Shown here piece after piece: positions 5,537 through 64,000 of a stretch of DNA of 64,000 nucleotides (positions are counted from its first letter, which is position 1; each line of letters starts with the position of its first letter). The notes under the pieces were generated by a model. That model worked only from the letters and a program-made list of their open reading frames with translations, was not told where the DNA came from and ran no database searches. Source of the DNA: Trypanosoma brucei (Eukaryota); contig CP000069.1 of NCBI GenBank assembly GCA_000002445.1, positions 800,001 to 864,000 of the forward strand. Reading direction: 5' to 3'. Both the position numbers and the translations under genes were made by a program.

Positions 5537-6031
5537 ATGTACCGCACTCTCACACCGTCATGCAAAAAATTCAGCGGGTTTTACACGACTTTCCCCCGTC
5601 GATGTAACACCACTATTTTGATTCCCTTCCGAATCTTCTCCATATTACTGTACCTCACGGCACTCATTTGCGTGGCTGGATCAAGTGATGATTTTGTATT
5701 GATTGAGTCTCGGGATAATGAGGTATCTGGCGGTGGTGATCGTGTGGACCTTCGCCGATCTGTAAATGTTTATTTAGTTGTTAGCTTCATGTTGCTTTTC
5801 GTCACCTGCTGGGGTATTTTTACGGGACGTACGCTGCGAAGTGGTACCGTGAACTTTATGCACTGCTGCTCCCACACAACAGCTGCAATAGCTTTGATAG
5901 TGATATGGTGTCTGAAGTTACATTTACATCGAATGTGGCATGTATTTTACGCCTTCGGTGCCATTCCTACCGCAATGGAAGTGTGTGCGCTGTGTGCGTC
6001 GTATTATCGTGGTTTGGATAGTTATTTGTGA
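5537..6031 (+). CDS. possible small hydrophobic protein (164 aa), doubtful
   Basis: ATG-initiated ORF in the 2.5-kb gap between the NUDIX and USP genes. It has 3-4 hydrophobic segments (ILLYLTALICVAGS; VYLVVSFMLLFVTCWGIF; AAIALIVIWCL). No homolog recognised. It could be a chance ORF in the UTR. Confidence 0.2.
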   Translation: MYRTLTPSCKKFSGFYTTFPRRCNTTILIPFRIFSILLYLTALICVAGSSDDFVLIESRDNEVSGGGDRVDLRRSVNVYLVVSFMLLFVTCWGIFTGRTLRSGTVNFMHCCSHTTAAIALIVIWCLKLHLHRMWHVFYAFGAIPTAMEVCALCASYYRGLDSYL

Positions 6032-11072: not shown

Positions 11073-11333
11073 ATGAGCGTCACAACAAAGCAGATGGTTA
11101 AGCCGACTGTTGTCGTGCACCGTTACTTAAAAGAGAGTCAACGTGTGTGTGTGTGGCTTGTGCACGAAACTAAGATGAAGATCGAGGGCGTTTTGTTGGG
11201 TTACGATGAGTTTATGAATGTCGTGTTGGGCGACGCGACGGAGGTGCATCTCAAAACCGGAGAGGTTGTTCAATTAGGGAAGATCCTTCTTCGCAGTGAT
11301 AATGTGGGTGTCATTCACCCTATTGGCATATAG
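11073..11333 (+). CDS. SmE: small nuclear ribonucleoprotein Sm-E (Sm fold)
   Basis: 86 aa. Sm1/Sm2 motifs are present. It aligns along its length with metazoan SmE: [65 protein letters not shown] versus human [64 protein letters not shown]. Confidence 0.8.
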
Positions 11334-46337: not shown

Positions 46338-47684
46338 ATGCTCCAACGCGGTTTGGAAGCGGTGCTGCGCCAGTTTACAGCTGCTGATGAACGAGGTGCA
46401 GACAACACAAAGAACAAAGTGAGTGTTGAATGTTTGCAGGCACGCAGCAGTGAGGTTCGTAACTGTGAGAGTACAACAGATACAGCAGAAAAGAAGTCAA
46501 AGGCGCATCACGAGGAGGAATCCAGATATGACGAGGAATTCGTGCGAGATATATTGTCACGTGACCCCGTCCCCATCGATGAACTGCGCGGTTTAAGTCG
46601 AAGTGGTTGTCCCGCTGGTTTTCGTTACGAGGTGTGGTGTTACTTGACTGGGCACCTTCAACCATCGAGCCTGAACCGTGCTGCAGTTCTTACGCGTAAG
46701 CGACAGGAATATGTGGGATACATGCAAAGCAGTTACGGGTCTACTGACTGGGATGCTGCTTTTGCAGCAGTGGGAGATTCGGTAGGTAATGCGCCTGGCG
46801 GGGAATCTGGCAGTGGTGGTTCATCTCTCTGGCCTTCCTTTCGCAGTGGGGCTTCCGGTTTCGGTTCTTCTTCCTTGAACACTCCCAGTGACTCGGAGCT
46901 TTCAATATTGAAACAAATTCGAAAGGATATTCCGCGTATGGCAGCTGGTTTGGCATTTCTTAGCAACAGGCGAGTAATGTTGTCTGTGGAACGCTGCTTG
47001 TACATATGGGCACTACGTCATCCCGCCTGCGGTTATGTGCAAGGAATGGATGATTTTACAATTCCGTTTATTAGTGTTGTACTGGCAAATAGGGTTTGTA
47101 GGACAAAGACAGTGGCAGATCTCTACACACTTGATCCCGAGGAGGTGGGTGCGCTACTTTCTGTGGAGGTGATTAGTGACGAGGAATGGGTGAGTACCAT
47201 TGAAGCGGATACATATTGGATGGTTTCCTACTTCCTAAGCGCTATTCAAGAGAACTATACGTACGACCAGCGCGGTTTGCATAGCATGGTGGAGAAACTG
47301 GAAGCTGTTGTTCGAGCAGTAAATGTGAAACTTTATAACCACCTCAGGAATGATCTGCAAATTGACTTTAAGCAGTTTTCATTTAGGTGGATGAATTGCC
47401 TACTTTTGCGTGAGCTTAATGCTACACAAGTACTACGCTTGTGGGATGCATATCTCGCTGATGAGGAAAAGGATTGGTGCACCACTCATGTTTACACATG
47501 CGCCGCATTTCTGCAATGGTGGTCAGCTGCGCTTCTACAGGAAAATGATTATTGCGTTGCAATAAAGTTTTTGCAAAATCTTCCTTCCAATGAACTGAGT
47601 GACCGCGATATCAGCGCAATTGTTTCGCAGGGAATAGTCATGCAAAAATTGTACAATAGCGCCCTTGCACATCTCGCGCAGTAG
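46338..47684 (+). CDS. TBC-domain Rab GTPase-activating protein
   Basis: Arginine finger IRKDIPRM (IxxDxxR) and glutamine finger GYVQGMDD (YxQ) with the intervening RRVMLSVERCLYIWALRHPACG. ATG at 46338. Confidence 0.85.
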   Translation: MLQRGLEAVLRQFTAADERGADNTKNKVSVECLQARSSEVRNCESTTDTAEKKSKAHHEEESRYDEEFVRDILSRDPVPIDELRGLSRSGCPAGFRYEVWCYLTGHLQPSSLNRAAVLTRKRQEYVGYMQSSYGSTDWDAAFAAVGDSVGNAPGGESGSGGSSLWPSFRSGASGFGSSSLNTPSDSELSILKQIRKDIPRMAAGLAFLSNRRVMLSVERCLYIWALRHPACGYVQGMDDFTIPFISVVLANRVCRTKTVADLYTLDPEEVGALLSVEVISDEEWVSTIEADTYWMVSYFLSAIQENYTYDQRGLHSMVEKLEAVVRAVNVKLYNHLRNDLQIDFKQFSFRWMNCLLLRELNATQVLRLWDAYLADEEKDWCTTHVYTCAAFLQWWSAALLQENDYCVAIKFLQNLPSNELSDRDISAIVSQGIVMQKLYNSALAHLAQ

Positions 47685-49223
47685 CAAATGAGTTGATTGT
47701 TTTAAAAATAAAAATAAAACAAAGCGAGGGATTTGAAAAGAGGAATGCTGAATTTACGGCTCATGATGAAATGAAATGAAACTGGGTGATTGAGTGTAAA
47801 ATGGCGAAAGTTAAGGGGGGACGAGGAGAATTTATATAGTGTTGTAACCTTTTCAATGCAATGCATTCAAGTAAGATGTTGGGTTTCCAACGACTACGAC
47901 GATGCGAAAGCCAGTAGATGGGGTGCATGAAATAGAAAAATTAATGAACCAACTTTTTGTTTCTATTTTCCTCTCCTCTCCTCTCTTGTTTCTTTTTTTT
48001 TTTGCTCTGCTGTTACCCTTATTTGAGGTATTTTCTTTTGATATCTTTTTGATTTTCCTTTCGTCCCTTTAATTTTATCCAGTTATTCCGAACTTGCGCA
48101 TCGTTTTGCTTCATTTCACTTAACCGTACTTTTTTCATCTACTTTTGTGGATGCATTTCTTTTTTTTGTTATTGTTGCAGTTCCACCACATCCCCGTCTC
48201 CCATTTCATCTATGTTTTTTTTCCATTTTTTTTTCTACCTTTTAACCCCGTCTGGTATTACACTCCAGATGCTACTATGCTCGATTGGTCATTATGATAT
48301 ATTGGCCCTTGTTGTTGCTACAGTTGCCGTTGTTTCTGTTTTTATTCATTGTGACCGGCAGCATCATCGAGTTTATGAAATGCAAATGTATCTTATGTGC
48401 TTTTACTCTTTGTTTGTTAGCGGTTCAGGTGCTTGTTCAAATACAAAAAAAATAAATAAGGAAAAATATATCTTTTATTCTATCAAGGGAAATTTGTCGT
48501 TCTCTTGAAGGTGTTTACGTCTGTTGCTCACATAAAAAGTTTTATGACTTGCTGTCGGATGGTGAAGGTCTTTGATTCAGTGGTCCTGTCGTGTGTTTTT
48601 TTTTTTTGCTTATCGTTGTTGCAACTGCTTATTCGTACTTTGTGGCGGTCAACGCGGTAAGGCGATCTGAAACCTCTTCAAAAGAAAAGGTAAAAGAAGG
48701 GGAAGATGTTAAGGGAAAGGGGGAAAGTTTTCCGCACGCACGTTTGTGATGTAATGTTTCATTTATTAATTTTTCTTTGTTATATATTTCCTCCTCTCTT
48801 TCTTTTTACTTCTTTGTGTTGGCACGACAGTGTGAGGATGATAATAACACCATTAGAGTTAACAATAATACGACTTTTGGGGTGCCTCTCCGATGTGTGT
48901 AATAATATTCATTCTTCATAATGTGCGTCAAATATGCTTTAGTGATATGTTGCTTTTCTATTTATACTTTTATTTCTCTTTACAATTGGACATAGACACA
49001 ATAATATTACCGAATTCCGTTACATTCCACAGTATAAGTGGTGACGGGGAGAGGTGGTGCAGTTGTGCTACACTTCGCTTGAGTGGATCTTTAAGAGTAA
49101 TATAGTAATAATAAGTAATAAAGTAATTTAATTTTTTTTTAAAATAAAAACAAAGGATAGGGAAAGAGTGACAGGAAATTTTTTGTGAAATTCACAGTTT
49201 AGGTACCGAAGGGGGAGGAAGGG

Positions 49224-51666: not shown

Positions 51667-53349
51667 ATGTCCCACTTTCAGCCTTCGCCGTGTTTCAATA
51701 CTTTTTCTTCGTTTCTGCAGGAAATCACAAACATCGGCAGCAGCGGCATAGACACGGAGAATAAGGAGAACATCCCACCGGGATCTTTTGGTCGGTTGAA
51801 TGACGGTAAGGGAGGTTGCCGACGTAATAGCAGTCATACCTGCTTTCGTAAGCAGCAACAACACCAGGAACAGCATCAGCAGCAACAGTTTCATAATATT
51901 CCCCGAGTGAATGATTGTTGCACGCCTATGAAAGAGGTTACATATCAGCAACAACAATGCCATACAGGACTAACACCAGGAAATAAATATATGATGAACT
52001 CGGCAAACAGAGATTACCCCGTAGGCATGAATGGAATTGATTTCCTGCTTTTAGATGAGAGTGACGTCTTTGACGGAAGGGATAACGGCTTCTTCACTCC
52101 AAATGTGAAGCGTCAAGGGGGAGTAACGGGCAACCACGGAAAGGTCTCGGAACTGTTTCACGAAAGCATGGAAGCACCTAGGCTAGCACGTAACCTAAAT
52201 GATAGCATAGAGGGGGTTCCGCTTGTTGGCAACGTGCTGCAAGAGAGTGATGACGAGGATTGCCTTGATAGCTACCGCCCGACCGAAATGTCCTCGACGC
52301 AAATATTTAATCCACGGTTGCAGGGTCAAGAATCTCGGCACTGCCCGCAAGATCACTGCTCATATCAGAAGCAGGTACATCAACAACCAAGTGATCGATC
52401 ACATTTACTCGGTTCTGCCTGGTGCGAAACCGCTCCGCGTCCGAAACCCCAACCTGAGCGCAATCACACCGCCACGCGCGTTACTCACGGTACCACACCA
52501 TTGGTTGCAGTTGCTGGTAGGCGGGTACCTGTTGACAAACTACACCTTCTGCTTGGGGCTACCGCGCAGGATGGAGTGGATGGGCAGTCTGGTGCGCGAG
52601 ATGCTGTGAATACTGTGCCCCTTGTTCCTTCTTCCCGTCCTACACCTTCTGCTGCTCAAACATTTAAAGTTATTCCACTTGCGCGTCCCTCGGAACCGTC
52701 AGTATCGCCCTCACCGCTTGCAACAACGCCCCAGAATACTGTTGCTGGACCCACAACACGTCGTCTTGCATCGTCGTTATTCCATAAGGAAATGGTTGTT
52801 ATTGATTTCGGTAAAGGAAACATCATGCGGTTCAAACCTAACCCCGCTTTTCCACCTCCAGTACCGGGAAAGCGATACCTTGTTGCGGTACGCGCTAGCC
52901 GTAGTCCATACGATAATGTCGCATATAAGGATGCCGGATTGTGCTCTTATGTGCTTCGTCACCCAGCAGATGGTAGTGGATCTAATGGAACAAGTGCAAC
53001 AGCAAACATAACCATTACCAAATCATCGGGCGATGTGGAGCGCGGTATTTTCGATGGCAGCATTATTCGTTGTATGGACACCCCGGGGGATGCGGTGCAG
53101 CTTCAACTTCTTGCCGTAGAGCGTGAGGCCGCTATTGTGGAATGCCGAAAACACTTCAAATTCCTCAACCTTCCGTTTGAGCTTGTGGACGTGCACTACA
53201 CGTTCGATAGGACGATTTGTGTTGTGTATTACAACATACATCGCCAGGAGGGGACAAGCGGTCACCCCAACGTGTCTCGTCTCGTGAGGACGCTTCAATT
53301 CAGACTCAAATGCAAAGTACATTTAAAGGCGGACTTTTGCAGCGACTAA
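51667..53349 (+). CDS. Gln-rich protein with PSP1 C-terminal conserved domain
   Basis: The C-terminal ...YLVAVRASRSPYDNVAYKD...LVDVHYTFDRTICVVYYNIHRQEGTSGHPNVSRLVRTLQFRLKCKVHL resembles the PSP1-C consensus (..ve.qfDr.kltfyyta..riDFReLVr.L...rIwm). N-terminal poly-Q (QQQHQEQHQQQQ). Confidence 0.55.
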   Translation: MSHFQPSPCFNTFSSFLQEITNIGSSGIDTENKENIPPGSFGRLNDGKGGCRRNSSHTCFRKQQQHQEQHQQQQFHNIPRVNDCCTPMKEVTYQQQQCHTGLTPGNKYMMNSANRDYPVGMNGIDFLLLDESDVFDGRDNGFFTPNVKRQGGVTGNHGKVSELFHESMEAPRLARNLNDSIEGVPLVGNVLQESDDEDCLDSYRPTEMSSTQIFNPRLQGQESRHCPQDHCSYQKQVHQQPSDRSHLLGSAWCETAPRPKPQPERNHTATRVTHGTTPLVAVAGRRVPVDKLHLLLGATAQDGVDGQSGARDAVNTVPLVPSSRPTPSAAQTFKVIPLARPSEPSVSPSPLATTPQNTVAGPTTRRLASSLFHKEMVVIDFGKGNIMRFKPNPAFPPPVPGKRYLVAVRASRSPYDNVAYKDAGLCSYVLRHPADGSGSNGTSATANITITKSSGDVERGIFDGSIIRCMDTPGDAVQLQLLAVEREAAIVECRKHFKFLNLPFELVDVHYTFDRTICVVYYNIHRQEGTSGHPNVSRLVRTLQFRLKCKVHLKADFCSD

Positions 53350-53800
53350 TGTGCGGCGTCACTTCTTTTGCAGTTACGCATATTGGGAGGGAGAGGGAGA
53401 GGGAGAGGGAGAGAGAAGGTTTCAATGACTGCAAAAGTCCGTTAGTTTATAATTATTGTTGGTGGTGGTGGCTTTTTTTTTTTTTTTTTGCTGTTGTTGG
53501 TATTGTTGATGTTGCTTTTATTTTGGTTTGATAAAAATTTTTTTTTCTTTGAACGTCATAAACAGTACCCAGGACGAAGGAAGTAAATGCTTAGAAGGGA
53601 AATGAAAATAGATAACAATGAAGTGGAAGAGGCAATCACGAAATGAAAAATTGACGTTGAAGAAGATTCTAAAAAAAAAAAAGAGAAAAGGGGAAATGAA
53701 GGAGGTAAAATGTGAAAGAAAGAAGGAAGGACATTAAAATAAAAAAATAGCAGCGGCTCTGAAACTCACGATTTTGAAGTCGTTTTACCCTTGTGGAATG

Positions 53801-53822
53801 CACACACACACACACACACACA
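53801..53822. repeat. (CA)11 microsatellite
   Basis: cacacacacacacacacacaca. Confidence 0.9.
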
Positions 53823-54069
53823 GAAAATATTCCAGCAGGAACTCTGAGAGTTGTGAGAGGAATATGTTTATATTTGTTTATTTGTTTTTTTTTTGGAGGG
53901 GGGTTGGAGGCAGAAGAAAGGATGGAAGTTCTTAAATTGTTCTTCTCTTCTCTCTTGTACTTCCTCAATATATACATATGACTATCAGATTCTCACATGC
54001 ATATTAATGGAAGTCGTGAACACATTAGAAATTTAGCTTCATACTTCTTTATGCGCATTTTTTTTTTTT

Positions 54070-54087
54070 GGGGGGGGAGGGGAGGGG
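54070..54087 (+). repeat. G-quadruplex-capable G-run motif G8-A-G4-A-G4
   Basis: ggggggggaggggagggg, giving four or more G3+ tracts with 1-nt loops. It is flanked by T10. Confidence 0.6.
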
Positions 54088-56815
54088 CGTTGTTGTTTTA
54101 TTGGCGTGCACTGTAATAATTTAAATATAATCCAGTTACCGAAATGACAACCACTTTTTCTCCTTCTTTTCTGCTATTAGTTTGGTTCATCTTGGGTACA
54201 TTTTTTTTTTGTCCTGTTTTACTTATTTACTTTTTACTATTTCCGCTCTTCTTCTTTTTTTTTCTAAATCATTTCTCCTTGCTGCCATTTTCTTTGGACT
54301 TACCCGTCTGTCCATATTTATATTATTTATATATTTGTTTGTATTTGCACTTTAAAAAAATTTTAAATGTTTTTTCTCCCTGTGCAGCAGCACCTTTTCC
54401 TTTTATGATTTTTTTTCTTCCTTCTTTTTTTTTTTTAAAAATTTTTACCTGTTTGTGGTTGTCATAATTAACCATTAACGCCATAGAGCCGTCGCGGCGC
54501 TCATGAGATCTTTCGTTTTTCTCCCTTTTTTTTGTTTAAATGAAGTTTGTGGAGAGCTTTAAAAAAAAATTGTAGGGGATTTGAGCACCGCGGCAGGCCA
54601 AATTAAAAGGAGGGACAAGACAAAAAAGAAAAAAGAAAAAAACATAGAATTGTAATATTAAAAGAGTGACGGCGAGCCATGAATAAATAATAATAACTAA
54701 AAAGAAGGAGATGATTTTTTTTTTATTTAGAAAAAAAATGAAAACAAAAAAGATAAAACAAAACTTCTTTTTTACGACCAGCGGATACGAGGATTAATAC
54801 AAGTGAAGAAGGAAAGAGAAAGAAAACTGGGGAAAGAAGGTAAAATTACAAAGAAAGGGAAAAGGAAAGGGAAGACAGAAGAAGAAAAGAGAAGAAATGT
54901 GCTACAGCAAACATAAACAACCCTCCAGGTAATTCGAAATTTATATGCATATTTGTCTTTTCTTTAAGTTTTTCTTCATAAATTATTATTATTATTATTA
55001 TTTTTTTCATACACGAAGAGGAATTGTAATTGTTCTTATAGAGGGAAAACAACGCCACCACTTCCATGAAACTTAAGAAAAGATAAAAACAAGTAGCAAT
55101 TTTTTTTCTTTTTTTAAATTCTTCTTCCCACATTTTTTCTCCCTATATTCTTATTTTCTTTACACTGTTTTTATGAGGGAACTCGTAACTTGTCGCTGTG
55201 TTTAGTTGTTTTCATTTGTTTCGTTCTGTATTAAAAGTTGTTGATTTTTTTTTGTTTACTCTTCTCCTCTTGCAATTAGTGATGTTGTTATTTTTGATAG
55301 CCCCGTCTTTGTTTTGTTTTGTGTTTCTTTTTTTTTTTCCTCCTCTTTCGTGTTTCATTTTTGTATGACAACTCGCTCACATTCGCCGCGCCGCTCTTCA
55401 GAGAAACCTCTAGTGGTGGCATGTGCAATGTTAATGCCGAAGAAAATAATATATAAATATTATATATATTATTTATATATTTGTATATGTAAAAGGAAAA
55501 TTAAATATGTGAGATAAAATCAAAGATGAAAGACGAGGTGAAATTAAATAGGACAGAAGAAAAAAGGAAAAAAAAAGTGTCATCGTCGTGATCACAAGAA
55601 TCATCTTTGATTAATGAGTAAGTAAGCAAGTGCGTGTTAATTAAATTAAATTTTGTAACTAATATATAACAAGAAAATGAAAAGAGAATACTTGAGAGAT
55701 GCCAGTTCATTAGATTTCACACCATTTTTTTATTTTTATTTTTATTTTTTCATTAGATTTTTTTTTCATTTTAGATGCAAATGTGGAGAAAAGCGGAAGG
55801 AGTCGTACTGCCGAGTTGAAGGTTTTTTGTAGTACCTTTTTTCTTGTTTCGTTTTTATTTGAAAGTAAATTTGTGGTTCTTTCCTCTTATGCTCTTGTGC
55901 TCATTTACAAATCCTGTTACGGTATAAATTTTTTTTTTTAAAAAAAGAAAGTGAAAAAAGCAAACGGAGCAAATCAAATTGACGAATGAAAGAACGAATA
56001 AATGACAACGAAGAGAAGAAAAAATAAAAAGGAAATTCGTGAACATATGATAAAAAAAACTAAAAACAGGGGGACGAAAAGCAAAAAGAAAAAAACACGT
56101 CAACATAGACAAAAAATACATAGGCAAACATACACGTCGATATTATATAAATATAAATATATTTATTTATTTATTTATATTTATATTTATAGTATTGATG
56201 GTTGTATGTTTGTGTGCGTTGAAAGGGAGTGAGCGCCGATAAACTCCCTTTTGTGCGCCTTTTTGTTGTTGTTTTTTTTTTCCACATGTTTGTGTTTTCG
56301 TTCTCTCACAGTTCTGTTTTACCTATTACTCGTTATCAGTTCACTCCGTTAGATGTTATACCGCTTATTTATTAATATAAATTTATTTCCCTTGCATTTC
56401 CCTCATACCTCATTTCTTTTTTTCTTTTGAGCTCGGTCGCATGTGTGAGTTTATTTTTTTTTTGTCGGAGCTCAATGAATGAAAAGTGAGGAGGAAAAGG
56501 CAAAAAAAAACATATATATATATACTTATTTAATTTATATATGTTTTTTTCCCCTCTTCTGCTTGGGGGTATGTGAGGGAATTTCACCTTCCTGTTTCTG
56601 CAGGAAGTAAACCGCATTTAGATAAATTAAAAAGAAGGAAGAATAAATGTTTGAATCGGTGAATGAACGAAAGAGTGAAGAAATGGAGAAGTTATGGATA
56701 CGGAACAACACTGCGCATAGAAATTTTTTCAATAAAGAAAAACTTTTCCACCTCCCCACCCCTTTCCATCATTTATTTCCTCTTTACTTTTTCTTCTTCA
56801 ACGAAATTTGTTAAA

Positions 56816-57150
56816 TGTGTTATTGTTGATATTATTACTATTACTATTACTATTATTGTCATTATTGCTATTATTATTGTTGTTGTTATTACTGTTAATG
56901 CTGTTACCACTTATGTTGTCGTTATTATTATGTTTTTTTTTTTTCGTTTGACCGCTCATTTATTACTGTTGAGGTATTTCCACCTTATGTGAGCGAACGG
57001 CTTTGATAAAGTGGTGAAAGTGCCAAGAACTGTAATATAAGTTTTATTATGACAGTATTGACAATAATGATGACAACAACAACAACAATAATAATAATAA
57101 TTCATATGATAGTTGTAACAGCAATAATTTGTAACAACAGTTACAATATT
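56816..57150. repeat. imperfect inverted repeat of triplet-repeat DNA: (ATT/GTT)n arm (about 56816-56935) and (AAT/AAC)n arm (about 57040-57150) separated by about 100 nt
   Basis: Arm 1 reads ...attattactattactattactattattgtcattattgctattattattgttgttgttattactgttaatgctgttacc.... The reverse complement of arm 2 reads ...attattgctgttacaac...attattattattattgttgttgttgttgtcatcattattgtc.... Shared non-trivial words (attattgct, gctgttac, attattattgttgttgtt, gtcattattg) appear in inverted order. Confidence 0.5.
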
Positions 57151-58599
57151 GACAAATAAGTTGATTTCTTCCATGGGACACACACACACACACACCTCTG
57201 TTTTTTTTTCATTTATTTAGGCAATGAAGAGACTGGTGGTATGAAAAAAAACAAAGCTGGAAGGAATGAAGAAGGAGATAAAAGAAAAAGAAGAAATTAA
57301 ACTGGAAAAAAGGGGTTTAGATAATAAACAGTGAAAGTTCCACCTCCATAAACGCACCCACTTCCTTTTCGTATTTGTACGTTTCCTCCTCCCTCTCATT
57401 TTTTTGTTTTAAATGTTGTCGTCGGTTCTTTTCTTCTTCTTTTTTTTTCTCCCCCTTTTTTTTCCCCACTCCTATTCTCTTTCTTGTTTTTTTTTGTATA
57501 CTTCAACTTAAGCAAAGTAAACGAAAAGAAACATTTCTCCATTTTTACTTCCTCGTGAGTCGTCTTTTTTTTTTCTTTTGTGTTGTTTTATTCGAAACCT
57601 TTCTTCCTTCAATTCCAATGATTTCCTCACTTTAAAAGTGAAAGAACAAAAAAAAAAAGAGGAAAACGTTACCAAATTAAGCATGATCAAAACAAAAAAA
57701 GAAAAGATACCAAATATATAAACATATACGTATACGTTGAAATCATGCCTGCGTAAAGAAGAAAAGGAGGAGGAAGAAAGGGGAGAATAATTAAAGGGGG
57801 AAAAAAATAAGAAAAGAAAATAATAAATGGGGTGGAAAAAAAAATTAAAAAGAGACACATGCAGTTGAAGGAAACACAGAAATGTGAGCTGGAAAAAAGG
57901 AAAAAAAAAAGGAATCAAAAGAGAAAGAAAGAGAAAAAAAAAAGAATATGTAACGACCGTATAGAAGCACCGTGACGATGAAGATGATGACAATAATAAT
58001 ACACATCTTTGTCCCCCTACCACCCATACAAAACACTTTAAAACTTTTGCCAGAATTTTTTTACTTTTGTTTTTTTTTCTTACATTCATTTATCTATTCT
58101 GCAGAGAAGAATCTAACTATTTATTGAGTAGATGAATAAATTATAAGAAAAATGACAGAAATGATGGGAAGAAATTCGTTTAAAAAAAATTGGCGATTGT
58201 TTTTGTGTTTGTCTATTTACTTCTTTTTTCGTTATGTTGGTGGCGTTTTTGGTGCAATTTTTTTGTTTCATATAAATATGTTTTTTTTTGGTTACTGTCG
58301 TTGTTATTGTTGCAAAGGGTGTCGCGTGAGTCAGTATATATATATATATATATTTTCTTAGGGGTTCTCACTGTGCGCGCCTCGTATAAAATATAACGTA
58401 AAGTTAAAAAAAAAAAACTTAAACGTAACCAATAAATGTTGACATATATGCATATATATATATATATTAGCTTTACGCTAACGTGCTTCGCTTCTTGTTC
58501 CCTTGTCCATAAAGAAATGTCTATATATTTATCGTTTTGTTTATTCTGTTTCCCCAACACTTCCTCTTAGTGTTTTTACAAATGTGTGATACGCGATGC

Positions 58600-58660
58600 T
58601 TGCTTCTCTTCTTTTTTCTTTCTTTTTTTTTTTGCTGTCACACTCTTTTTTTTCTTTGAA
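58600..58660 (+). promoter_or_regulatory. polypyrimidine tract / trans-splice signal for the downstream WD40 gene
   Basis: cttgcttctcttcttttttctttctttttttttttgctgtcacactcttttttttctttg. Confidence 0.4.
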
Positions 58661-59091
58661 CAATAAATTAAAAATATATAAAATGAGGTAAATAGTGTAA
58701 CTCGACGTTGTTTACTTCAAAGCGCTGCAGTTATTTGTCTCAATAGTTTTTTTTCTTTGATTTCATTATAACATATATATATTCGGCTTATTGCGTCCGT
58801 GCTAAATCTGCATTTGGCTCAAGTGACGAAAATTATTGTTGCATAAATTTGCGAGTACTACAATTACCGCGAAATAAATAGAAGATATTTTAACCTATAG
58901 GTTATAAGGAGGAGTAGTGTTTGAAGAGGAAATTACGCAAAGAGGTAACATATAAAAAAAAGAAGAGAGGGAAGAAAAGAAAGTAGAAAGCAGCCTGCTA
59001 TCAGCAGTGAATACGTAAGTAACAAACTGAAAAACAAAAAAAAACACAAAAGGAAAGAGTCGGAATTGAAGTTAATATTTCATTTGTTCAA

Positions 59092-60459
59092 ATGCAACAG
59101 CGTTCCATCAGTCCTGGTCGTGGTCGCGTGGTACCGAGAGGACAATTAACGCGGTCAGCGAGGGGCAGTACAATTTCATGCAGCAGCCCTCAGAGACCGC
59201 AAGCAGTTGTGAATGAATTACACCGCCGTGATGGAACAAATCCCACTACTGACCGGGGCCGCCAAATTGCTGAAGAGGTGGATGAACTAATGAATGAAGT
59301 GTATGGAGGAACGGCCCATCAACCACCTCCCGAATCTCTGCAGCGGCATGCGGAGGGCGGCAACCTCTTGGCTCGCTATAAGACATCCATCCTTGCTTCT
59401 GCTTTACCAACTTCATGGCAGCGAGGACCTTCAGACCCCGCAGGTTTGTGCTTTGATGCCAGTGACCGTAACTTGTTGTGTATGGATGTTTATGAAAAGA
59501 GGGGTCTTTGTGTCGTGGGTTCCGCGGATCATGGACTCAAGGTATTTGACCTCGCCACTGGAGCAGAAAAGCGAAATCTGTACACAAAAAAGTACGGTCA
59601 CACCGAGTGGGTAACGTGTTGCAAATTTCTACCAGACAGCGGCAAGATTCTTTCGGGTGGGATGGATAGTAAACTCTGTTTATGGGAGGCTTCCGGTCCC
59701 GCTCGTTGTACTGATTTAACTGGTCATACTGGAAGCATCAGCCAGGTGGAAGTGTGTGGCAATAACGGATTTGCTCTGAGCAGTAGCTATGATCGGACGC
59801 TGCGACTGTGGGATTGTGGAGCTGGTGGGCGGTGTATTGCAACGTTTGCCGGTCACAAAGCCCCTGTGATGATGTTTTCGTGGTGCGGGACGCAATTACT
59901 TTCAGGTGATCGCCAAGGGACTGCTAAAATGTGGGATGTGGAGAGCGGCGAGTGCCTTGCGACAATGGCCACGAAGCGTGGGCAAATAGGTTCGCTATGG
60001 CATACACTTCACACGAGTGTGGGATTACTTTCTGCTATTGGGGATCAGGGTGGGGTTTTAACCGTCATGGATTTCCCCCGTACCGGCAGTCGGCCCATAT
60101 TCCAAGGTGAGCTTCACCCGGGTGGTGTAATAAGCAGCATTCGCTCGGTAGATGAAACTCCATATTTGATTACTGCCGGAGCGGATAAGGTCATCCTCAC
60201 GCTCGATCCGCGTGCTGGTTTTGCAGTGGTTCATAACTTCACTGATCACCGTGATTTCATTTACTCGATGGAGACATTTGGTCCGTTGGTATTATCTGGT
60301 GGTGGAAATGGTTGGTTGCTGGTACATAATGTGTTGGATGGTAAATGTTGCTATGGGCTGGGCGCTAATGGGGCAGCTGTGCGTGAAATACGTACAACAT
60401 CGGAGTATCTGGTGGCGGCAGGGGATGATGGCAAAGCTATGGTTTATAGGTTTAACTGA
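59092..60459 (+). CDS. WD40-repeat protein (455 aa)
   Basis: Multiple WD repeats ending in WD/WE dipeptides (GHTEWVTCCKF...LCLWE; GHTGSISQVEV...LRLWD; GHKAPVMMFSW...AKMWD). The N-terminal 90 aa is basic or disordered. Confidence 0.8.
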   Translation: MQQRSISPGRGRVVPRGQLTRSARGSTISCSSPQRPQAVVNELHRRDGTNPTTDRGRQIAEEVDELMNEVYGGTAHQPPPESLQRHAEGGNLLARYKTSILASALPTSWQRGPSDPAGLCFDASDRNLLCMDVYEKRGLCVVGSADHGLKVFDLATGAEKRNLYTKKYGHTEWVTCCKFLPDSGKILSGGMDSKLCLWEASGPARCTDLTGHTGSISQVEVCGNNGFALSSSYDRTLRLWDCGAGGRCIATFAGHKAPVMMFSWCGTQLLSGDRQGTAKMWDVESGECLATMATKRGQIGSLWHTLHTSVGLLSAIGDQGGVLTVMDFPRTGSRPIFQGELHPGGVISSIRSVDETPYLITAGADKVILTLDPRAGFAVVHNFTDHRDFIYSMETFGPLVLSGGGNGWLLVHNVLDGKCCYGLGANGAAVREIRTTSEYLVAAGDDGKAMVYRFN

Positions 60460-60561: not shown

Positions 60562-61304
60562 AAGGCCAATAAATGTTTTTTGTTCGTTTTTTTTAATGTT
60601 GGGTTCGTTCATTATTATATCGTGTTTTCTTTTTTTTTTAAAGGTTCATGCTTTTCATTGTTACCATACCAACTTCGTGCGTTTTATTCACCTCCGTTTC
60701 CGTCATTGCACTGGCCCATAAAAGAGTAGAAAGGTATGTTGTATTTTTGTGTCAATGTAATTGAAACCGTGCAAATGACTGTTTCTCCCTTTTGTTTACG
60801 TCGTCTTGCCGCAGTTTCTCTTCCTATTTCTCCGTGCCACACTTGTTTGCCCGTTAATAATTATGATCATTTTATATGGGTGACATGTATATTTTTTTTA
60901 AAAATCCTTCTGATATCACAACAAGAGGTGAGGAAAGTGAACGAAGTAATGGTGAGAAAATCAATAAGTTGACGGCCGTTCTTTTTTTTTTTGTTGTTGT
61001 TCCCCTGTTTTGCCACTTGGGTGCTTTGCCCGTGAAAACTTATAATTACTCTGCTCGTTGTGAGATGTTACAATCAAAATTGCTAAAAATATTCCACATT
61101 CTTACATCATCCTTATTCTTCATTTTTTTTCCTGTGATGACAATTTACCATCTGCTGTCGGCAACAAACAATACAACTGCAACACGAAGGAATAAGAGAT
61201 AAGAATCGGTATATTTAAAACAGCCACACATATATATATTGTTAAAACTTGTGGTAGAAATAAAACGAAAAAGAAAAGAAAAAAATAAATTTTCTTTGCG
61301 AGTT

Positions 61305-62702
61305 ATGTATCGTTTTTCAATCAGTGGTAGTGCTCTACCTTCTTCTGTTGATTGGGCACTTCTCCGGCATTTGCCCACTTGGAGACTTAATAAATATACA
61401 ATGGATCCAGTAAAAGGAGTAGGGAAAGATATAGAGTGTACAGATGATGAACCATCACCATTTTGGGTATCAGGAAGAGAAATTCGGCTTCTCCGTATGA
61501 CAATGAGTCGCTCTTCAGCGTCGCCAGCGTGTGGTTCTTTTTCTTATGGCGAAAGGAAAAGTCGTATTGCTGACAAATCCAAACAATGCGGATGGGCGAA
61601 CCATTTTGTTAGGTGGAATAGAGCCATCAGCGTATTTGGTGTTCCATATCTCAACGCCGCGGACACGTCTTTTTGTTCTGTATTTGATTCTGTCACATGC
61701 ATAAACTTCGAAATTCCCTTGACAGAAGGTGGGGGAGTTGCATGGTTGCCAAATGGAGCTCCGTTATCAAGTCCATTGAGGTGTTTTGTTGAAGAAAATG
61801 TAACAAAGCGGGGAATTACATCCGCCTTCTCTTTTCACTCACCGTATTGGTTGGAAGTTGAGGGGTTTCAAAGCCGCTGGCCTGGCGTTGATATCGCTCC
61901 TGCTGCTTCTCCACTTTATGTCAAGGATATGCCGAAAGGGTTTATAAATGCGGAGCAGACAACAGACGCTTCACGCTTCGATTCCGTGTCGTGTGGTCCA
62001 CAAAGGCAACACGAATGCTTACTCATAAGTGGCGTGTATCATGTTTCGCTTAACTCGTCTCTAAAACTCGCAGATGCTCTTGCGAAAATGACAAAAGCTG
62101 AAGAAGGACAATTACTGCTTCCCCCTTCACTTCATGAAACATCTTTTTCAAGGAGCATGCCATTACAGGGGTCTCCGCAGTGCAATGAGATGGAAAAAAA
62201 TAATCCTTGTAATTTGTGGGTTGATGTGGAATTTATTGAAGCAGTTGGTTGGTCTGTGCACAGTGCGGCTGTGGGTGTGGAACTTCACAAAACACAGCTT
62301 CTTTTGAATCACCGACCATTTCCACTCCAACAAAGTGGGTCAGATAATTCGGTAACATTAATAAATGCTGTGTTTATTGTGGAGCGGGATGACTTACTGA
62401 ATTTCATAACGTATAAGCCTGACCTCATTGGCTTCACACAAAAAATTTTCATATACTCTTTCACAGTTATCAGATTGGCTTTTCAAGCGTACAAAATGAA
62501 ATATACTTCAACTACGTGGGTTGTTGCTTCTGCTCTGGAGGGGTTCAACATCCGTGTCCGTAAAACAGATGGGCTCGTGGGTGTTGAAGTTAAACTTTTC
62601 ATTCGTCAAGAGAACAAACATTTCACAACTGTTGTCGTCAATAGAGACGAGTTGAACATATCCGATGAAACCTTTATGGAGTTACAACAGCGCTGTGTAT
62701 AA
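61305..62702 (+). CDS. hypothetical protein (about 465 aa)
   Basis: ORF with in-frame ATG at 61305 (MYRFSISGSALPSS...). The track start 61239 lies in an A-rich stretch. Alternative ATG at about 61401 (MDPVKG). No domain recognised. Confidence 0.5.
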   Translation: MYRFSISGSALPSSVDWALLRHLPTWRLNKYTMDPVKGVGKDIECTDDEPSPFWVSGREIRLLRMTMSRSSASPACGSFSYGERKSRIADKSKQCGWANHFVRWNRAISVFGVPYLNAADTSFCSVFDSVTCINFEIPLTEGGGVAWLPNGAPLSSPLRCFVEENVTKRGITSAFSFHSPYWLEVEGFQSRWPGVDIAPAASPLYVKDMPKGFINAEQTTDASRFDSVSCGPQRQHECLLISGVYHVSLNSSLKLADALAKMTKAEEGQLLLPPSLHETSFSRSMPLQGSPQCNEMEKNNPCNLWVDVEFIEAVGWSVHSAAVGVELHKTQLLLNHRPFPLQQSGSDNSVTLINAVFIVERDDLLNFITYKPDLIGFTQKIFIYSFTVIRLAFQAYKMKYTSTTWVVASALEGFNIRVRKTDGLVGVEVKLFIRQENKHFTTVVVNRDELNISDETFMELQQRCV

Positions 62703-63802
62703 ATAACAGATAATATTTGCCGTGCGAGAATCATCACAATACCTCAAAGTTTTTATGAAGTTTTTTTTGTCTCCGTCAAGAGTCGTTTATATTTATTCGT
62801 GATTATACTGTTCCATTTTATTTTTTTTTTTAAAGGCCTCTACTGCTATTATTATTTTTTTTTTACAAGTTTCTGTGCATCTTTTTCTATTTCTTTTGTT
62901 GCTGCATGGTTACTTGCTAAATTTGTTGCATCGTCGTTGACCACGTCTCCTTTTTTTTCCCCTTTTGCTTGAACAAACTGTCTTTATGTGTATTTTATTT
63001 TTGATACAAAGTACTTATGTCTCTTTTGTTTTATTTTTGTTTTCTCACTGATGCGTTCTTTTCATTTATTTTCCCCTGCTTTCATTTCGTCATGTACTTC
63101 CAATATTTTCTTATTTTCCCCCTCTTGCCACACATAAATTCATATTTCCCTTGCATTGCGAATTGGTCTGCTAATATCTTTCACTACTGCAAGTTGTTAA
63201 CATATTCCACAAAAACATCTTTTTTTTCCCCTCCTTTTCTTTCATTTTCACTTTGTTGTTTTTTTTTTTACTTTTCATGCTTTAAAGCATTCAAGTAGGT
63301 GCAAACCAAAAAGGATTTAGAAAGAAAACCCTCAAAAGGCTTGTTTTTTTTTCTTTTTTCCTCTTTATAATATTTTTCATATTTTTCACCCACTACTCAC
63401 ACGAGTCTGTGGGTTCTTGAGTAACTCTGCTTGATCACGCGACCTGTTGTGGTTTCAACTTGTACGCGTGCGTTGTGAAGTTCCTATTTTGCTCTCTTTC
63501 GCCTTCTAATTTTTTAAACTTCACTTCCTTTGTTTTCTTTTTTGTTTGGTTTCTTCTACTCACTTTTTTGTCGTTTTTGGTAGTTTTTTATTTTGTTTTC
63601 CTTTTGCGACCAGTTGTTGTGTATTGTCTCTACCACTTTATAAATACATACACAGGCACAAACGCATATCAAAACTACCAACAAATACCGAAGCGGAGGA
63701 AGAGAAACGAAATACGCACCGACAGTGTCGTTTTAATTCTTTTCATTTTTTTAAATTTTGTTTTGTCCTTTCTCACATTTGTGTACCAAAAACTGTGGTT
63801 TC

Positions 63803-64000
63803 ATGAACGTGCGTGTTGCTACAGCAGTTCGTATCCTACCAGGAACTGCAATAGCAGACAAGCAATTCATTCTTTCTTCGGTCCACAAAGCCGTTGATGG
63901 GCAAACTGTTGTAGTGGACAGTTGTGGCGATGGGTCGCGGCCGATGATTGTACGGGTTGATGAGGTTTATGATGAAGAGGATAATCAAAGCTACTTTTAT
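63803..64000 (+). CDS. 5' end of a hypothetical protein-coding gene (3'-partial; runs off the window end)
   Basis: ATG at 63803 opens frame 2 with no stop to nt 64000 (MNVRVATAVRILPGTAIADKQFILSSVHKAVDGQTVVVDSCGDGSRPMIVRVDEVYDEEDNQSYFY). It is preceded by a T-rich tract. It is not in the ORF track because no stop lies in the window. Confidence 0.3.
   Translation, partial: MNVRVATAVRILPGTAIADKQFILSSVHKAVDGQTVVVDSCGDGSRPMIVRVDEVYDEEDNQSYFY

What the first reader, a model, noticed from the sequence alone, without database searches (positions are those of the whole stretch)
53350..59091. 5.7-kb ORF-free, AT-rich, low-complexity block between two co-directional genes
Gene gaps elsewhere in the window are 0.4-2.5 kb, but here 5.7 kb lacks any credible ORF on either strand. 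Every ORF above 60 aa translates to homopolymer-like F/L/K/I strings. The block is packed with A10+ and T10+ runs, (CA)n, (TA)n, (ATT)n, (GAGAGG)n and G-quadruplex-capable G-runs (53891-53900, 54070-54087). The next gene's poly(Y) tract lies only at 58600-58660, so most of this is probably an unusually long 3'UTR of the PSP1-C gene, or it harbours an unannotated non-coding transcript. Long 3'UTRs of this kind are the main carriers of developmental regulation in trypanosomes. The G4 motifs and unstable triplet tracts could also make this a replication-stress or recombination hotspot, or an assembly-collapse site.
Basis: seen in the sequence. Interest (0 to 1): 0.5.

Follow-up and report, generated by a model that had tools for sequence, protein, structure and literature searches.

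The report
Long PIE8 mRNA 3' untranslated region

Summary
Window 53350-59091 is the largest gene gap in the window, 5742 nt against 1824 nt for the next largest once two small genes are counted. It also has the lowest GC (0.31), no coding potential on either strand, and 5-8 times more long A/T runs than a first-order Markov simulation gives.

The flanking genes are T. brucei PIE8 (ESAG8-associated, PSP1-C; Tb927.6.2850) and a WD40 gene (Tb927.6.2860). The start of the block is identical to the TREU927 reference.

Supplementary tables of Mugo & Clayton 2017 (PMC5568443) list PIE8 among RBP10-bound mRNAs. They give a manually curated 3'-UTR of about 5070 nt with 3 UA(U)6 motifs and the comment "annotated 3'-UTR too short". 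The database UTR is only 322 nt and stops at a genomic A12 run. I found exactly three UA(U)6 motifs, all inside the first 5070 nt. That length ends about 180 nt before the polypyrimidine tract at 58599-58657.

Four other Trypanosoma species also have their largest local gap after the PIE8 orthologue (1.9-4.0 kb), with no conserved sequence or ORF in it.

Two claims are not: the 58.6-kb polypyrimidine tract is not the only one, and nothing supports an assembly artefact or a fragile-site role. The feature is already known and of low interest.

The parts
51667..53349 (+). Coding sequence of PIE8, the ESAG8-associated protein (Tb927.6.2850). It is 560 aa with a PSP1 C-terminal domain.
   Evidence: 99% identical to UniProt Q9XML1 'ESAG8 associated protein'. 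Pfam PSP1 hit at 1.4e-10. The CDS length of 1683 nt matches the tables in PMC4696300.
53350..58419 (+). PIE8 3'-UTR of about 5070 nt. The 3' end is approximate. It is AT-rich, low-complexity and non-coding.
   Evidence: [quoted passage not shown] No coding potential. No Rfam or tRNA hit.
53349..53670 (+). The 322-nt 3'-UTR as annotated in TriTrypDB for TREU927. It ends immediately before a genomic A12 run (53671-53682), so the annotated end is probably an internal-priming artefact or a minor poly(A) site.
   Evidence: The sequence printed in PMC5568443 S1 Text maps exactly to 53349-53670. The extended manual version continues identically to at least 53794.
53385..53413 (+). (GGGAGA)n tract 36 nt after the stop codon. 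It is a canonical G-quadruplex motif on the mRNA strand.
   Evidence: TRF repeat at 53387-53413. G4 regular-expression match at 53385.
54070..54087 (+). G8AG4AG4 run preceded by T12. It is a canonical G-quadruplex motif on the mRNA strand.
   Evidence: Read directly from the sequence. Regular-expression match, with zero such motifs in 300 Markov simulations.
54999..55006 (+). UA(U)6 RBP10-binding motif, first of three.
   Evidence: The count of three equals the count in PMC5568443 S2 Table.
55743..55750 (+). UA(U)6 RBP10-binding motif, second of three.
56452..56459 (+). UA(U)6 RBP10-binding motif, third of three.
54154..54436 (+). Internal polypyrimidine-rich block (score 82) followed by an AG. 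It is a cryptic trans-splice and polyadenylation signal.
55100..55362 (+). Internal polypyrimidine-rich block (score 65).
56244..56428 (+). Internal polypyrimidine-rich block (score 47).
57357..57495 (+). Internal polypyrimidine-rich block (score 82), followed by a 300-nt purine-rich block at 57640-57950.
58406..58417 (+). A12 run at the inferred major poly(A) region. The stop codon plus about 5070 nt falls at about 58419.
   Evidence: The position is inferred by arithmetic, not from mapped reads.
58599..58657 (+). Polypyrimidine tract (score 44) that most likely directs trans-splicing of the WD40 mRNA and, coupled to that, PIE8 polyadenylation upstream. The first AG lies at 58686-58687.
   Evidence: and the sequence. 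The coupling rule (poly(A) sites about 140 nt upstream of the next splice site) is from PMC8982893.
58688..59091 (+). Inferred 5'-UTR of the WD40 gene, about 400 nt and purine-rich near the ATG.
   Evidence: Inference from the first AG after the tract and the purine profile. It has not been mapped.
59092..60459 (+). Coding sequence of a WD40-repeat protein (Tb927.6.2860).
   Evidence: Pfam WD40 hits. Named 'hypothetical protein, conserved, WD40 repeats' in the PMC4696300 tables. The same neighbour is present in T. vivax, T. cruzi, T. theileri and T. grayi.

Best explanation
The window is Trypanosoma brucei chromosome 6, inside one polycistronic transcription unit. About 5.07 kb of the block (roughly 53350-58420) is the 3'-untranslated region of the PIE8 mRNA (Tb927.6.2850), which encodes a PSP1-C-domain protein. 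The last 0.67 kb is the intergenic spacer, the polypyrimidine tract and splice acceptor, and the 5'-UTR of the downstream WD40 gene.

How it works. RNA polymerase II reads through the whole region. Trans-splicing of the WD40 mRNA at the tract and AG near 58.6-58.7 kb fixes PIE8 polyadenylation a few hundred nucleotides upstream. This yields an mRNA of roughly 7 kb.

The UTR is a long, low-complexity landing platform for RNA-binding proteins, with U-runs, A-runs, (AU)n, polypurine and polypyrimidine blocks and three UA(U)6 motifs. RBP10 binding is shown in the literature. RBP10 is the bloodstream-form repressor of procyclic-specific mRNAs. This fits PIE8 mRNA being flagged as procyclic-form specific, reduced in stumpy-like, blood and salivary-gland forms, and cell-cycle regulated.

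The many strong internal polypyrimidine tracts must normally be ignored by the splicing machinery. By analogy with other long T. brucei 3'-UTRs, this is probably through masking by proteins such as DRBD18.

Shown: gene identities, absence of coding potential, composition, motifs, the conserved long gap, and (from the literature) the length of about 5070 nt and RBP10 association. Inferred: the exact poly(A) and splice positions, masking of internal tracts, and any regulatory consequence of RBP10 binding for this particular mRNA.
For: 1. Gene identities come (99% to Q9XML1; Pfam PSP1, WD40, RIO2; PIE8 = Tb927.6.2850 with a 1683-nt CDS; Tb927.6.2860 = WD40).
2. PMC5568443 S2 Table shows PIE8 mRNA enriched 3.07x and 3.03x with RBP10, flagged 'Yes - PCF'. 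It lists a 3'-UTR of '~5070', '3' motifs and the comment 'annotated 3'-UTR too short'. [quoted passage not shown]
3. I independently count three UA(U)6 motifs, at 54999, 55743 and 56452. All lie within 5070 nt of the stop codon and none lies in the 322-nt database UTR. The bound mRNA therefore most plausibly includes the distal sequence.
4. The database UTR maps to 53349-53670 and ends at a genomic A12 run.
5. Stop plus 5070 nt is about 58419. This is about 180 nt upstream of the tract at 58599-58657 and 268 nt upstream of the first AG. That is compatible with the rule that polyadenylation occurs upstream of the next splice site (PMC8982893).
6. There is no coding potential and no Pfam, Rfam or tRNA hit. 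The same coding score recovered two small real genes in other gaps, which serves as a positive control.
7. The gap after the PIE8 orthologue is the largest local gap in T. vivax (3975 nt), T. cruzi (2738), T. theileri (2254) and T. grayi (1861). These gaps share no conserved nucleotide or translated segment.
8. The literature says 3'-UTRs of 5 kb or more exist in T. brucei, mostly on mRNAs for RNA-binding proteins and kinases, and are full of low-complexity sequence (PMC8982893; PMC10090614). DRBD18 prevents use of internal polypyrimidine tracts (PMC9380746).
9. PIE8 mRNA is reported to be regulated across the cell cycle and in development (PMC6907760; PMC4696300).
Against: I could not see column headers for the supplementary row. 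[quoted passage not shown]

No RNA-seq, spliced-leader or poly(A) reads were available here, so continuity of the transcript over 5 kb is taken from the paper's curation. The official database annotation gives only 322 nt.

Three UA(U)6 motifs are no more than chance gives in 5.7 kb of this composition (3.1 expected). Values in the same table row that may be RBP10-RNAi effects look non-significant, so control of PIE8 by RBP10 is not established.

Several internal polypyrimidine tracts are stronger than the terminal one, so shorter isoforms and UTR-derived RNAs may coexist. The 268-nt distance from the inferred poly(A) site to the AG is longer than the typical distance of about 140 nt.
Confidence: 0.87

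Rival explanations
1. The PIE8 3'-UTR is short, about 322 nt as in the database or about 0.6-0.8 kb ending before the 54.15-kb polypyrimidine block. Most of the block is then one or more separate spliced-leader-capped, polyadenylated long non-coding RNAs.
For: The database gene end is at 53670. Four or more internal polypyrimidine tracts with downstream AGs are as strong as genuine acceptors in the window. A total of 1428 mostly intergenic, AT-rich lncRNAs with normal processing signals have been reported in T. brucei (PMC9200285). UTR-derived trans-spliced RNAs appear when DRBD18 is depleted (PMC9380746).
Against: Curators who inspected RNA-seq and poly(A) tracks called the annotated UTR 'too short' and set it at about 5070 nt. 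The annotated end abuts a genomic A12 run, a classic source of false poly(A) sites. The short UTR carries no UA(U)6 motif, yet the mRNA is pulled down with RBP10. A long gap is conserved in four other species.
Confidence: 0.07
2. A mixture exists. The 5-kb UTR isoform coexists with substantial shorter PIE8 isoforms made at internal polypyrimidine tracts, and the choice between them is itself regulated across the cell cycle or life cycle.
For: Internal tracts are followed by purine-rich blocks and recur about eight times. Alternative processing of more than 200 long-UTR mRNAs is documented. The neighbouring gene Tb927.6.2830 is cited there as an example. The mapped end at 53670 may be a real minor site.
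Against: There is no direct evidence for this gene. PIE8 is not mentioned in the main text of the DRBD18 paper; full-text searches for PIE8 and Tb927.6.2850 found only other papers.
Confidence: 0.25
3. The block is an assembly artefact (a collapsed or mis-joined low-complexity region) or a fragile, recombination-prone locus driven by G4 motifs and triplet repeats.
For: Two canonical G4 motifs are present where none is expected, and there are many homopolymer and microsatellite tracts.
Against: There are no Ns, no large direct or inverted repeats and no tandem array longer than about 60 nt. The sequence is identical to the published TREU927 sequence where comparable. Synteny and a long gap are conserved in four independently assembled species. 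The G4 motifs lie within the first 740 nt only, and the triplet tracts are short ((ATT)7 and an imperfect (TAT)20).
Confidence: 0.02
4. The block hides a protein-coding gene, a decayed pseudogene, or a retroposon remnant.
For: A 193-aa ORF lies on the minus strand at 57508-58089, and several ORFs of 100 aa or more are present.
Against: All of these ORFs have negative codon log-odds and are antisense or in-frame readings of homopurine or homopyrimidine tracts. None has a Pfam hit. No translated similarity appears in the syntenic gaps of four species. No repeat family was found beyond low complexity.
Confidence: 0.02

Closest known systems
RBP10 mRNA 3'-UTR of T. brucei (Tb927.8.2780; 7.3 kb)
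   Same: Both are multi-kilobase 3'-UTRs on an mRNA for a regulatory or putative RNA-binding protein. Both are packed with low-complexity sequence, (AU)n repeats and many internal polypyrimidine tracts, and both sit inside a polycistronic unit. In the RBP10 case regulation is spread over several elements (PMC8982893; PMC9380746).
   Different: RBP10 mRNA is bloodstream-form specific. PIE8 mRNA is flagged procyclic-form specific and is itself bound by RBP10. The PIE8 UTR has not been dissected experimentally as far as I could find.
RBP10-target 3'-UTRs carrying UA(U)6 (for example ZC3H21, ZC3H22, EP procyclin)
   Same: PIE8 is in the published list of 260 mRNAs enriched at least 3-fold with RBP10, and it carries three UA(U)6 motifs.
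   Different: Motif density is low, at 0.6 per kb, and no higher than chance for this composition. A significant change in PIE8 mRNA after RBP10 RNAi is not evident from the row I could read.
Long low-complexity 3'-UTRs bound by ZC3H28 and DRBD18
   Same: Poly(AU), polypurine and polypyrimidine tracts are the motifs reported as enriched in ZC3H28-bound and DRBD18-bound long 3'-UTRs. This block has all three in excess.
   Different: Binding of PIE8 mRNA by ZC3H28 or DRBD18 could not be checked, because the supplementary tables were not held.
T. brucei intergenic lncRNAs (for example grumpy)
   Same: They are AT-rich, non-coding and lie between genes of a polycistronic unit, with spliced-leader and poly(A) processing signals available.
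   Different: grumpy hosts a snoRNA. No snoRNA or other Rfam family is detectable here. Published curation assigns the sequence to the PIE8 mRNA.

Membership tests
Trypanosome long regulatory 3'-UTR | Lies directly downstream of a CDS on the same strand within a polycistronic unit | tested here: met
   All 22 genes of the window are on the + strand. The block starts at the PIE8 stop codon.
Trypanosome long regulatory 3'-UTR | No protein-coding potential and no housekeeping RNA gene | tested here: met
   Codon log-odds are negative for all ORFs. No Pfam hit, no Rfam hit and no tRNA. No conserved translated segment across five species.
Trypanosome long regulatory 3'-UTR | The 3' end lies a short distance upstream of the polypyrimidine tract and AG used by the next gene | tested here: met
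   Stop plus about 5070 nt gives about 58419. The tract is at 58599-58657 and the AG at 58686. The positions are inferred, not read-mapped.
Trypanosome long regulatory 3'-UTR | Continuous transcript from the CDS to the distal poly(A) site (RNA-seq, Northern blot or long reads) | not testable with these tools
   This rests on the manual curation in PMC5568443, which used RNA-seq and poly(A) tracks.
RBP10 target mRNA | One or more UA(U)6 motifs in the 3'-UTR | tested here: met
   Three motifs, at 54999, 55743 and 56452. This matches the published count. The count is not above chance for this composition.
RBP10 target mRNA | Physical association with RBP10 and a response to RBP10 loss or gain | not testable with these tools
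   Association is published at 3.07x and 3.03x. The response columns could not be interpreted with certainty.
Spliced-leader-capped intergenic lncRNA | Own spliced-leader addition site and poly(A) site, giving a transcript separate from the neighbouring mRNAs | not testable with these tools
   The sequence prerequisites (internal polypyrimidine tract plus AG) are present. No transcript data were available, and the lncRNA tables were not held.
G-quadruplex-forming sequence | Four G-tracts of at least 3 G separated by loops of 1-7 nt | tested here: met
Two matches on the + strand, at 53385 and 54070, and none on the - strand. No match occurred in 300 simulations. Folding in vivo was not tested.
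snoRNA cluster or other structured ncRNA | Match to a curated covariance model, or folding significantly better than shuffled sequence | tested here: not met
   No Rfam hit reached the gathering score. The only hits at E<1 are microRNA models on an AT palindrome. Fold z-scores were -1.5 and -1.2.
Retroposon or dispersed-repeat remnant (ingi, RIME, SIDER-like) | Reverse transcriptase or endonuclease remnants, or copies elsewhere | tested here: inconclusive
   No Pfam domain and no repeat family beyond low complexity within the block. No T. brucei repeat library or genome was available to search.

The most novel reading that the evidence does not exclude
The block is organised as about eight successive modules, each a polypyrimidine block followed by an AG and a purine-rich block, with a period of roughly 700 nt. 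Each module resembles a genuine trans-splice acceptor region. The most novel reading not excluded is that these modules are conditionally unmasked, for example when DRBD18-like proteins fall, in particular cell-cycle phases or life-cycle stages. That would switch PIE8 between a repressed 7-kb mRNA and short-UTR isoforms, and would release spliced-leader-capped, polyadenylated UTR-derived non-coding RNAs with functions of their own.
Probability: 0.15. Interest if true: 0.4.

Novelty: already known. Interest (0 to 1): 0.12.

Why it matters
The block adds little new biology. It is a textbook example of the very long, low-complexity 3'-UTRs that T. brucei places on mRNAs for regulatory proteins, and it was recorded in 2017 as an RBP10-bound mRNA with a UTR of about 5 kb.

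The practical value is for annotation. According to that paper, the reference database models this UTR as 322 nt, ending at a genomic A12 run. Motif searches, RNA-seq counting and lncRNA calling that rely on the database model will therefore mis-assign about 4.7 kb of transcript.

The conserved position of a long gap after PIE8 orthologues in five Trypanosoma species suggests that heavy post-transcriptional control of this PSP1-C protein is ancient.

Tried and rejected
1. Exact-protein look-ups of the window's PIE8 and WD40 proteins, and of Q9XML1, found no T. brucei contig. No strain-to-strain comparison of block length was therefore possible.
2. Nucleotide and translated comparisons of the syntenic gaps of T. 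brucei, T. vivax, T. cruzi, T. theileri and T. grayi gave only low-complexity matches. No conserved element or ORF emerged.
3. RNA folding of two adjacent pyrimidine-block/purine-block pairs (57340-57960 and 54140-54900) gave long imperfect hairpins. Their z-scores were only -1.5 and -1.2 against dinucleotide shuffles, so I make no structural claim.
4. Rfam searches at the gathering score and at E<=1, ARAGORN, and Pfam on the ten longest ORFs found nothing meaningful.
5. Other motif counts were at or below chance: PUF9 UUGUACC (0), PUF UGUANAUA (0), and the cycling element (C/A)AUAGAA (3 against 1.6 expected).
6. Supplement searches did not give a UTR length or lncRNA annotation in PMC4285177, PMC2936537, PMC4845500, PMC5842037 and PMC4696300. 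No supplementary files were held for PMC9380746, PMC10090614 and PMC9200285.
7. I considered a retroposon remnant and found no evidence for it. It could not be excluded rigorously without a T. brucei repeat library.

Full report
WHAT THE WINDOW IS

All long ORFs lie on the + strand, as expected for a kinetoplastid polycistronic unit. The ORF ending at 53349 encodes a 560-aa protein with a PSP1 C-terminal domain. It is 99% identical to UniProt Q9XML1, 'ESAG8 associated protein' of Trypanosoma brucei brucei.

The literature names this gene PIE8, Tb927.6.2850, with a 1683-nt CDS, which is exactly the length of 51667-53349. The next ORF (59092-60459) is a WD40 protein listed as Tb927.6.2860. The preceding ORF is RIO2 kinase. 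The first 446 nt of the block (53349-53794) are identical to TREU927 sequence printed in a paper's supplement.

CHECKING THE OBSERVATION

The gap is 5742 nt. Two other apparently large gaps contain small genuine genes: an 86-aa LSM-domain ORF at 11073-11333 and a 164-aa TMEM107 ORF at 5537-6031. With these counted, the next largest gap in the window is 1824 nt. GC is 0.312, the lowest of any gap.

A codon log-odds score trained on the window's genes gives +0.23 to +0.35 bits per codon for real genes. It gives +25 and +28 total bits for the two small control genes. Every ORF of at least 50 aa in the block scores between -0.13 and -0.45 bits per codon, and the best ORF of at least 25 aa totals only +2.1 bits. 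The ten longest ORFs have no Pfam match. There are no tRNAs and no Rfam families at the gathering score. At E<=1 the only hits are two microRNA models on an AT palindrome.

Long homopolymers are far more frequent than in first-order Markov simulations:
- T10+ runs: 13 against 1.5.
- A10+ runs: 5 against 0.7.
- T8+ runs: 28 against 6.5.
- A8+ runs: 15 against 3.7.

Densities are also 2-5 times those of the window's other intergenic DNA.

The G-run at 54070-54087 is a canonical G4 motif. The (GGGAGA)n tract at 53385-53413 is a second canonical G4 motif.

One statement is wrong. The polypyrimidine tract at 58599-58657 is real, but at least four internal tracts are as strong or stronger.

WHAT THE BLOCK IS

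The decisive evidence is published. The supplementary S2 Table of Mugo & Clayton 2017 (PMC5568443) lists Tb927.6.2850 (PIE8) among mRNAs enriched at least 3-fold with the RNA-binding protein RBP10 (3.07x and 3.03x). The row is flagged 'Yes - PCF' and carries the entries '~5070', '3' and 'annotated 3'-UTR too short'.

[quoted passage not shown] The main text says the table reports the number of UA(U)6 motifs in manually annotated 3'-UTRs. [quoted passage not shown] I therefore read these columns as 3'-UTR length, motif count and annotation source.

Three checks of my own agree with this reading:
- The block contains exactly three UA(U)6 motifs on the + strand, at 54999, 55743 and 56452. All lie within 5070 nt of the stop codon. 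None lies in the 322-nt database UTR.
- The database UTR maps to 53349-53670 and stops immediately before a genomic A12 run. That is the typical signature of an internally primed or ambiguous poly(A) call.
- The stop codon plus 5070 nt is about 58419, beside another A12 run. This is about 180 nt upstream of the tract at 58599-58657 and 268 nt upstream of its first AG. It is compatible with the known coupling of polyadenylation to the downstream trans-splice site (PMC8982893).

The remaining 0.67 kb is spacer, splice signal and an inferred 5'-UTR of about 400 nt for the WD40 gene.

COMPARATIVE EVIDENCE

Gene order RIO2, PIE8, gap, WD40 is conserved in T. vivax, T. cruzi, T. theileri and T. grayi. 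In T. grayi the WD40 gene was not called, but tblastn finds it.

The gap after the PIE8 orthologue is 3975, 2738, 2254 and 1861 nt respectively, and it is the largest local gap in every species. These gaps share no nucleotide or translated similarity beyond low complexity.

A long non-coding spacer after PIE8 is therefore an old, conserved feature whose sequence is free to drift. It is longest in T. brucei. This argues against both an assembly artefact and a hidden gene.

HOW IT MOST LIKELY WORKS

Long T. brucei 3'-UTRs of 5 kb or more occur mainly on mRNAs for RNA-binding proteins and kinases. They carry multiple dispersed regulatory elements among abundant low-complexity sequence (PMC8982893). 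Poly(AU), polypurine and polypyrimidine tracts are the motifs enriched in long UTRs bound by ZC3H28 and DRBD18.

This block has all of these. It also shows a marked alternation of purine-rich and pyrimidine-rich segments. The standard deviation of purine fraction in 100-nt windows is 0.178, against 0.049 after shuffling and 0.10-0.14 in other gaps.

PIE8 mRNA is reported to be cell-cycle regulated (PMC6907760). It is also reported to be reduced in blood, stumpy-like and salivary-gland trypanosomes (PMC4696300). Its association with RBP10, the bloodstream-form repressor of procyclic mRNAs, offers one mechanism.

However, three motifs in 5 kb are no more than chance, and I could not confirm that RBP10 loss changes PIE8 mRNA. 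The strong internal polypyrimidine tracts must be ignored by the splicing machinery. DRBD18-type masking is the documented mechanism for other long UTRs, and I infer it here.

RIVALS

- A short UTR plus independent lncRNAs is not excluded by sequence. The published curation, the A12 at the database end and the motif positions all contradict it.
- Coexisting short isoforms are plausible but untested.
- A hidden gene, a retroposon remnant, an assembly collapse and a fragile site have no support.
- Folding of adjacent pyrimidine/purine blocks is no better than shuffled sequence.

VERDICT

The main residual value is to flag a truncated database UTR model. Interest is low.

Noticed in passing
window 53349-53682: The TriTrypDB/TREU927 gene model for Tb927.6.2850 ends at 53670, giving a 322-nt 3'-UTR. 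This is immediately before a genomic A12 run (53671-53682). Published curators call this end 'too short'. It is probably an internal-priming or ambiguous poly(A) call, and it would mis-assign about 4.7 kb of transcript.
   Followed up: yes
window 53350-59091: The block shows a checkerboard of purine-rich and pyrimidine-rich segments, each 100-400 nt long, in about eight alternations. The standard deviation of purine fraction is 0.178, against 0.049 after shuffling and 0.10-0.14 in other gaps. Overall the block is strand-symmetric (purine fraction 0.50), unlike the other gaps longer than 1 kb, four of which are pyrimidine-biased (0.45-0.46). Predicted pyrimidine/purine hairpins are not better than shuffled sequence.
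   Followed up: partly
window 11073-11333 (+): An 86-aa ORF with an LSM domain (Pfam 6.7e-18) and gene-like codon usage sits inside what looks like a 3.2-kb gap. It is a small Sm/LSm-like gene that ORF lists with a 200-aa cut-off miss.
   Followed up: partly
window 5537-6031 (+): A 164-aa ORF matches TMEM107 (Pfam 1e-32), a ciliary transition-zone membrane protein family. It sits inside the 2.5-kb gap.
   Followed up: partly
window 46338-49223: The RabGAP-TBC gene two genes upstream of PIE8 is Tb927.6.2830 if numbering is consecutive, which is an inference. That gene is cited in the DRBD18 paper (PMC9380746, Supplemental Fig. S7) as an example in its discussion of altered mRNA processing after DRBD18 depletion. 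Its downstream gap is 1.5 kb.
   Followed up: no
window 61239-62702 and 62703-64000: The ORF listed from a TTG at 61239 has a weak Tc-38 (p38) domain hit and a low codon score (0.10). This suggests the real ATG lies further downstream. The 1.3 kb after it, to the end of the window, is T-rich (AT skew -0.29) and has no credible ORF. It may be the start of another long 3'-UTR.
   Followed up: no
L003 11879-14132 (T. theileri): The syntenic gap in T. theileri has only 26% GC, against 45% in the adjacent CDS. This is even more AT-rich than the T. brucei block. The T. grayi gap has 49% GC. Base composition of this spacer therefore varies widely between species, while its large size relative to neighbouring gaps is kept.
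   Followed up: partly
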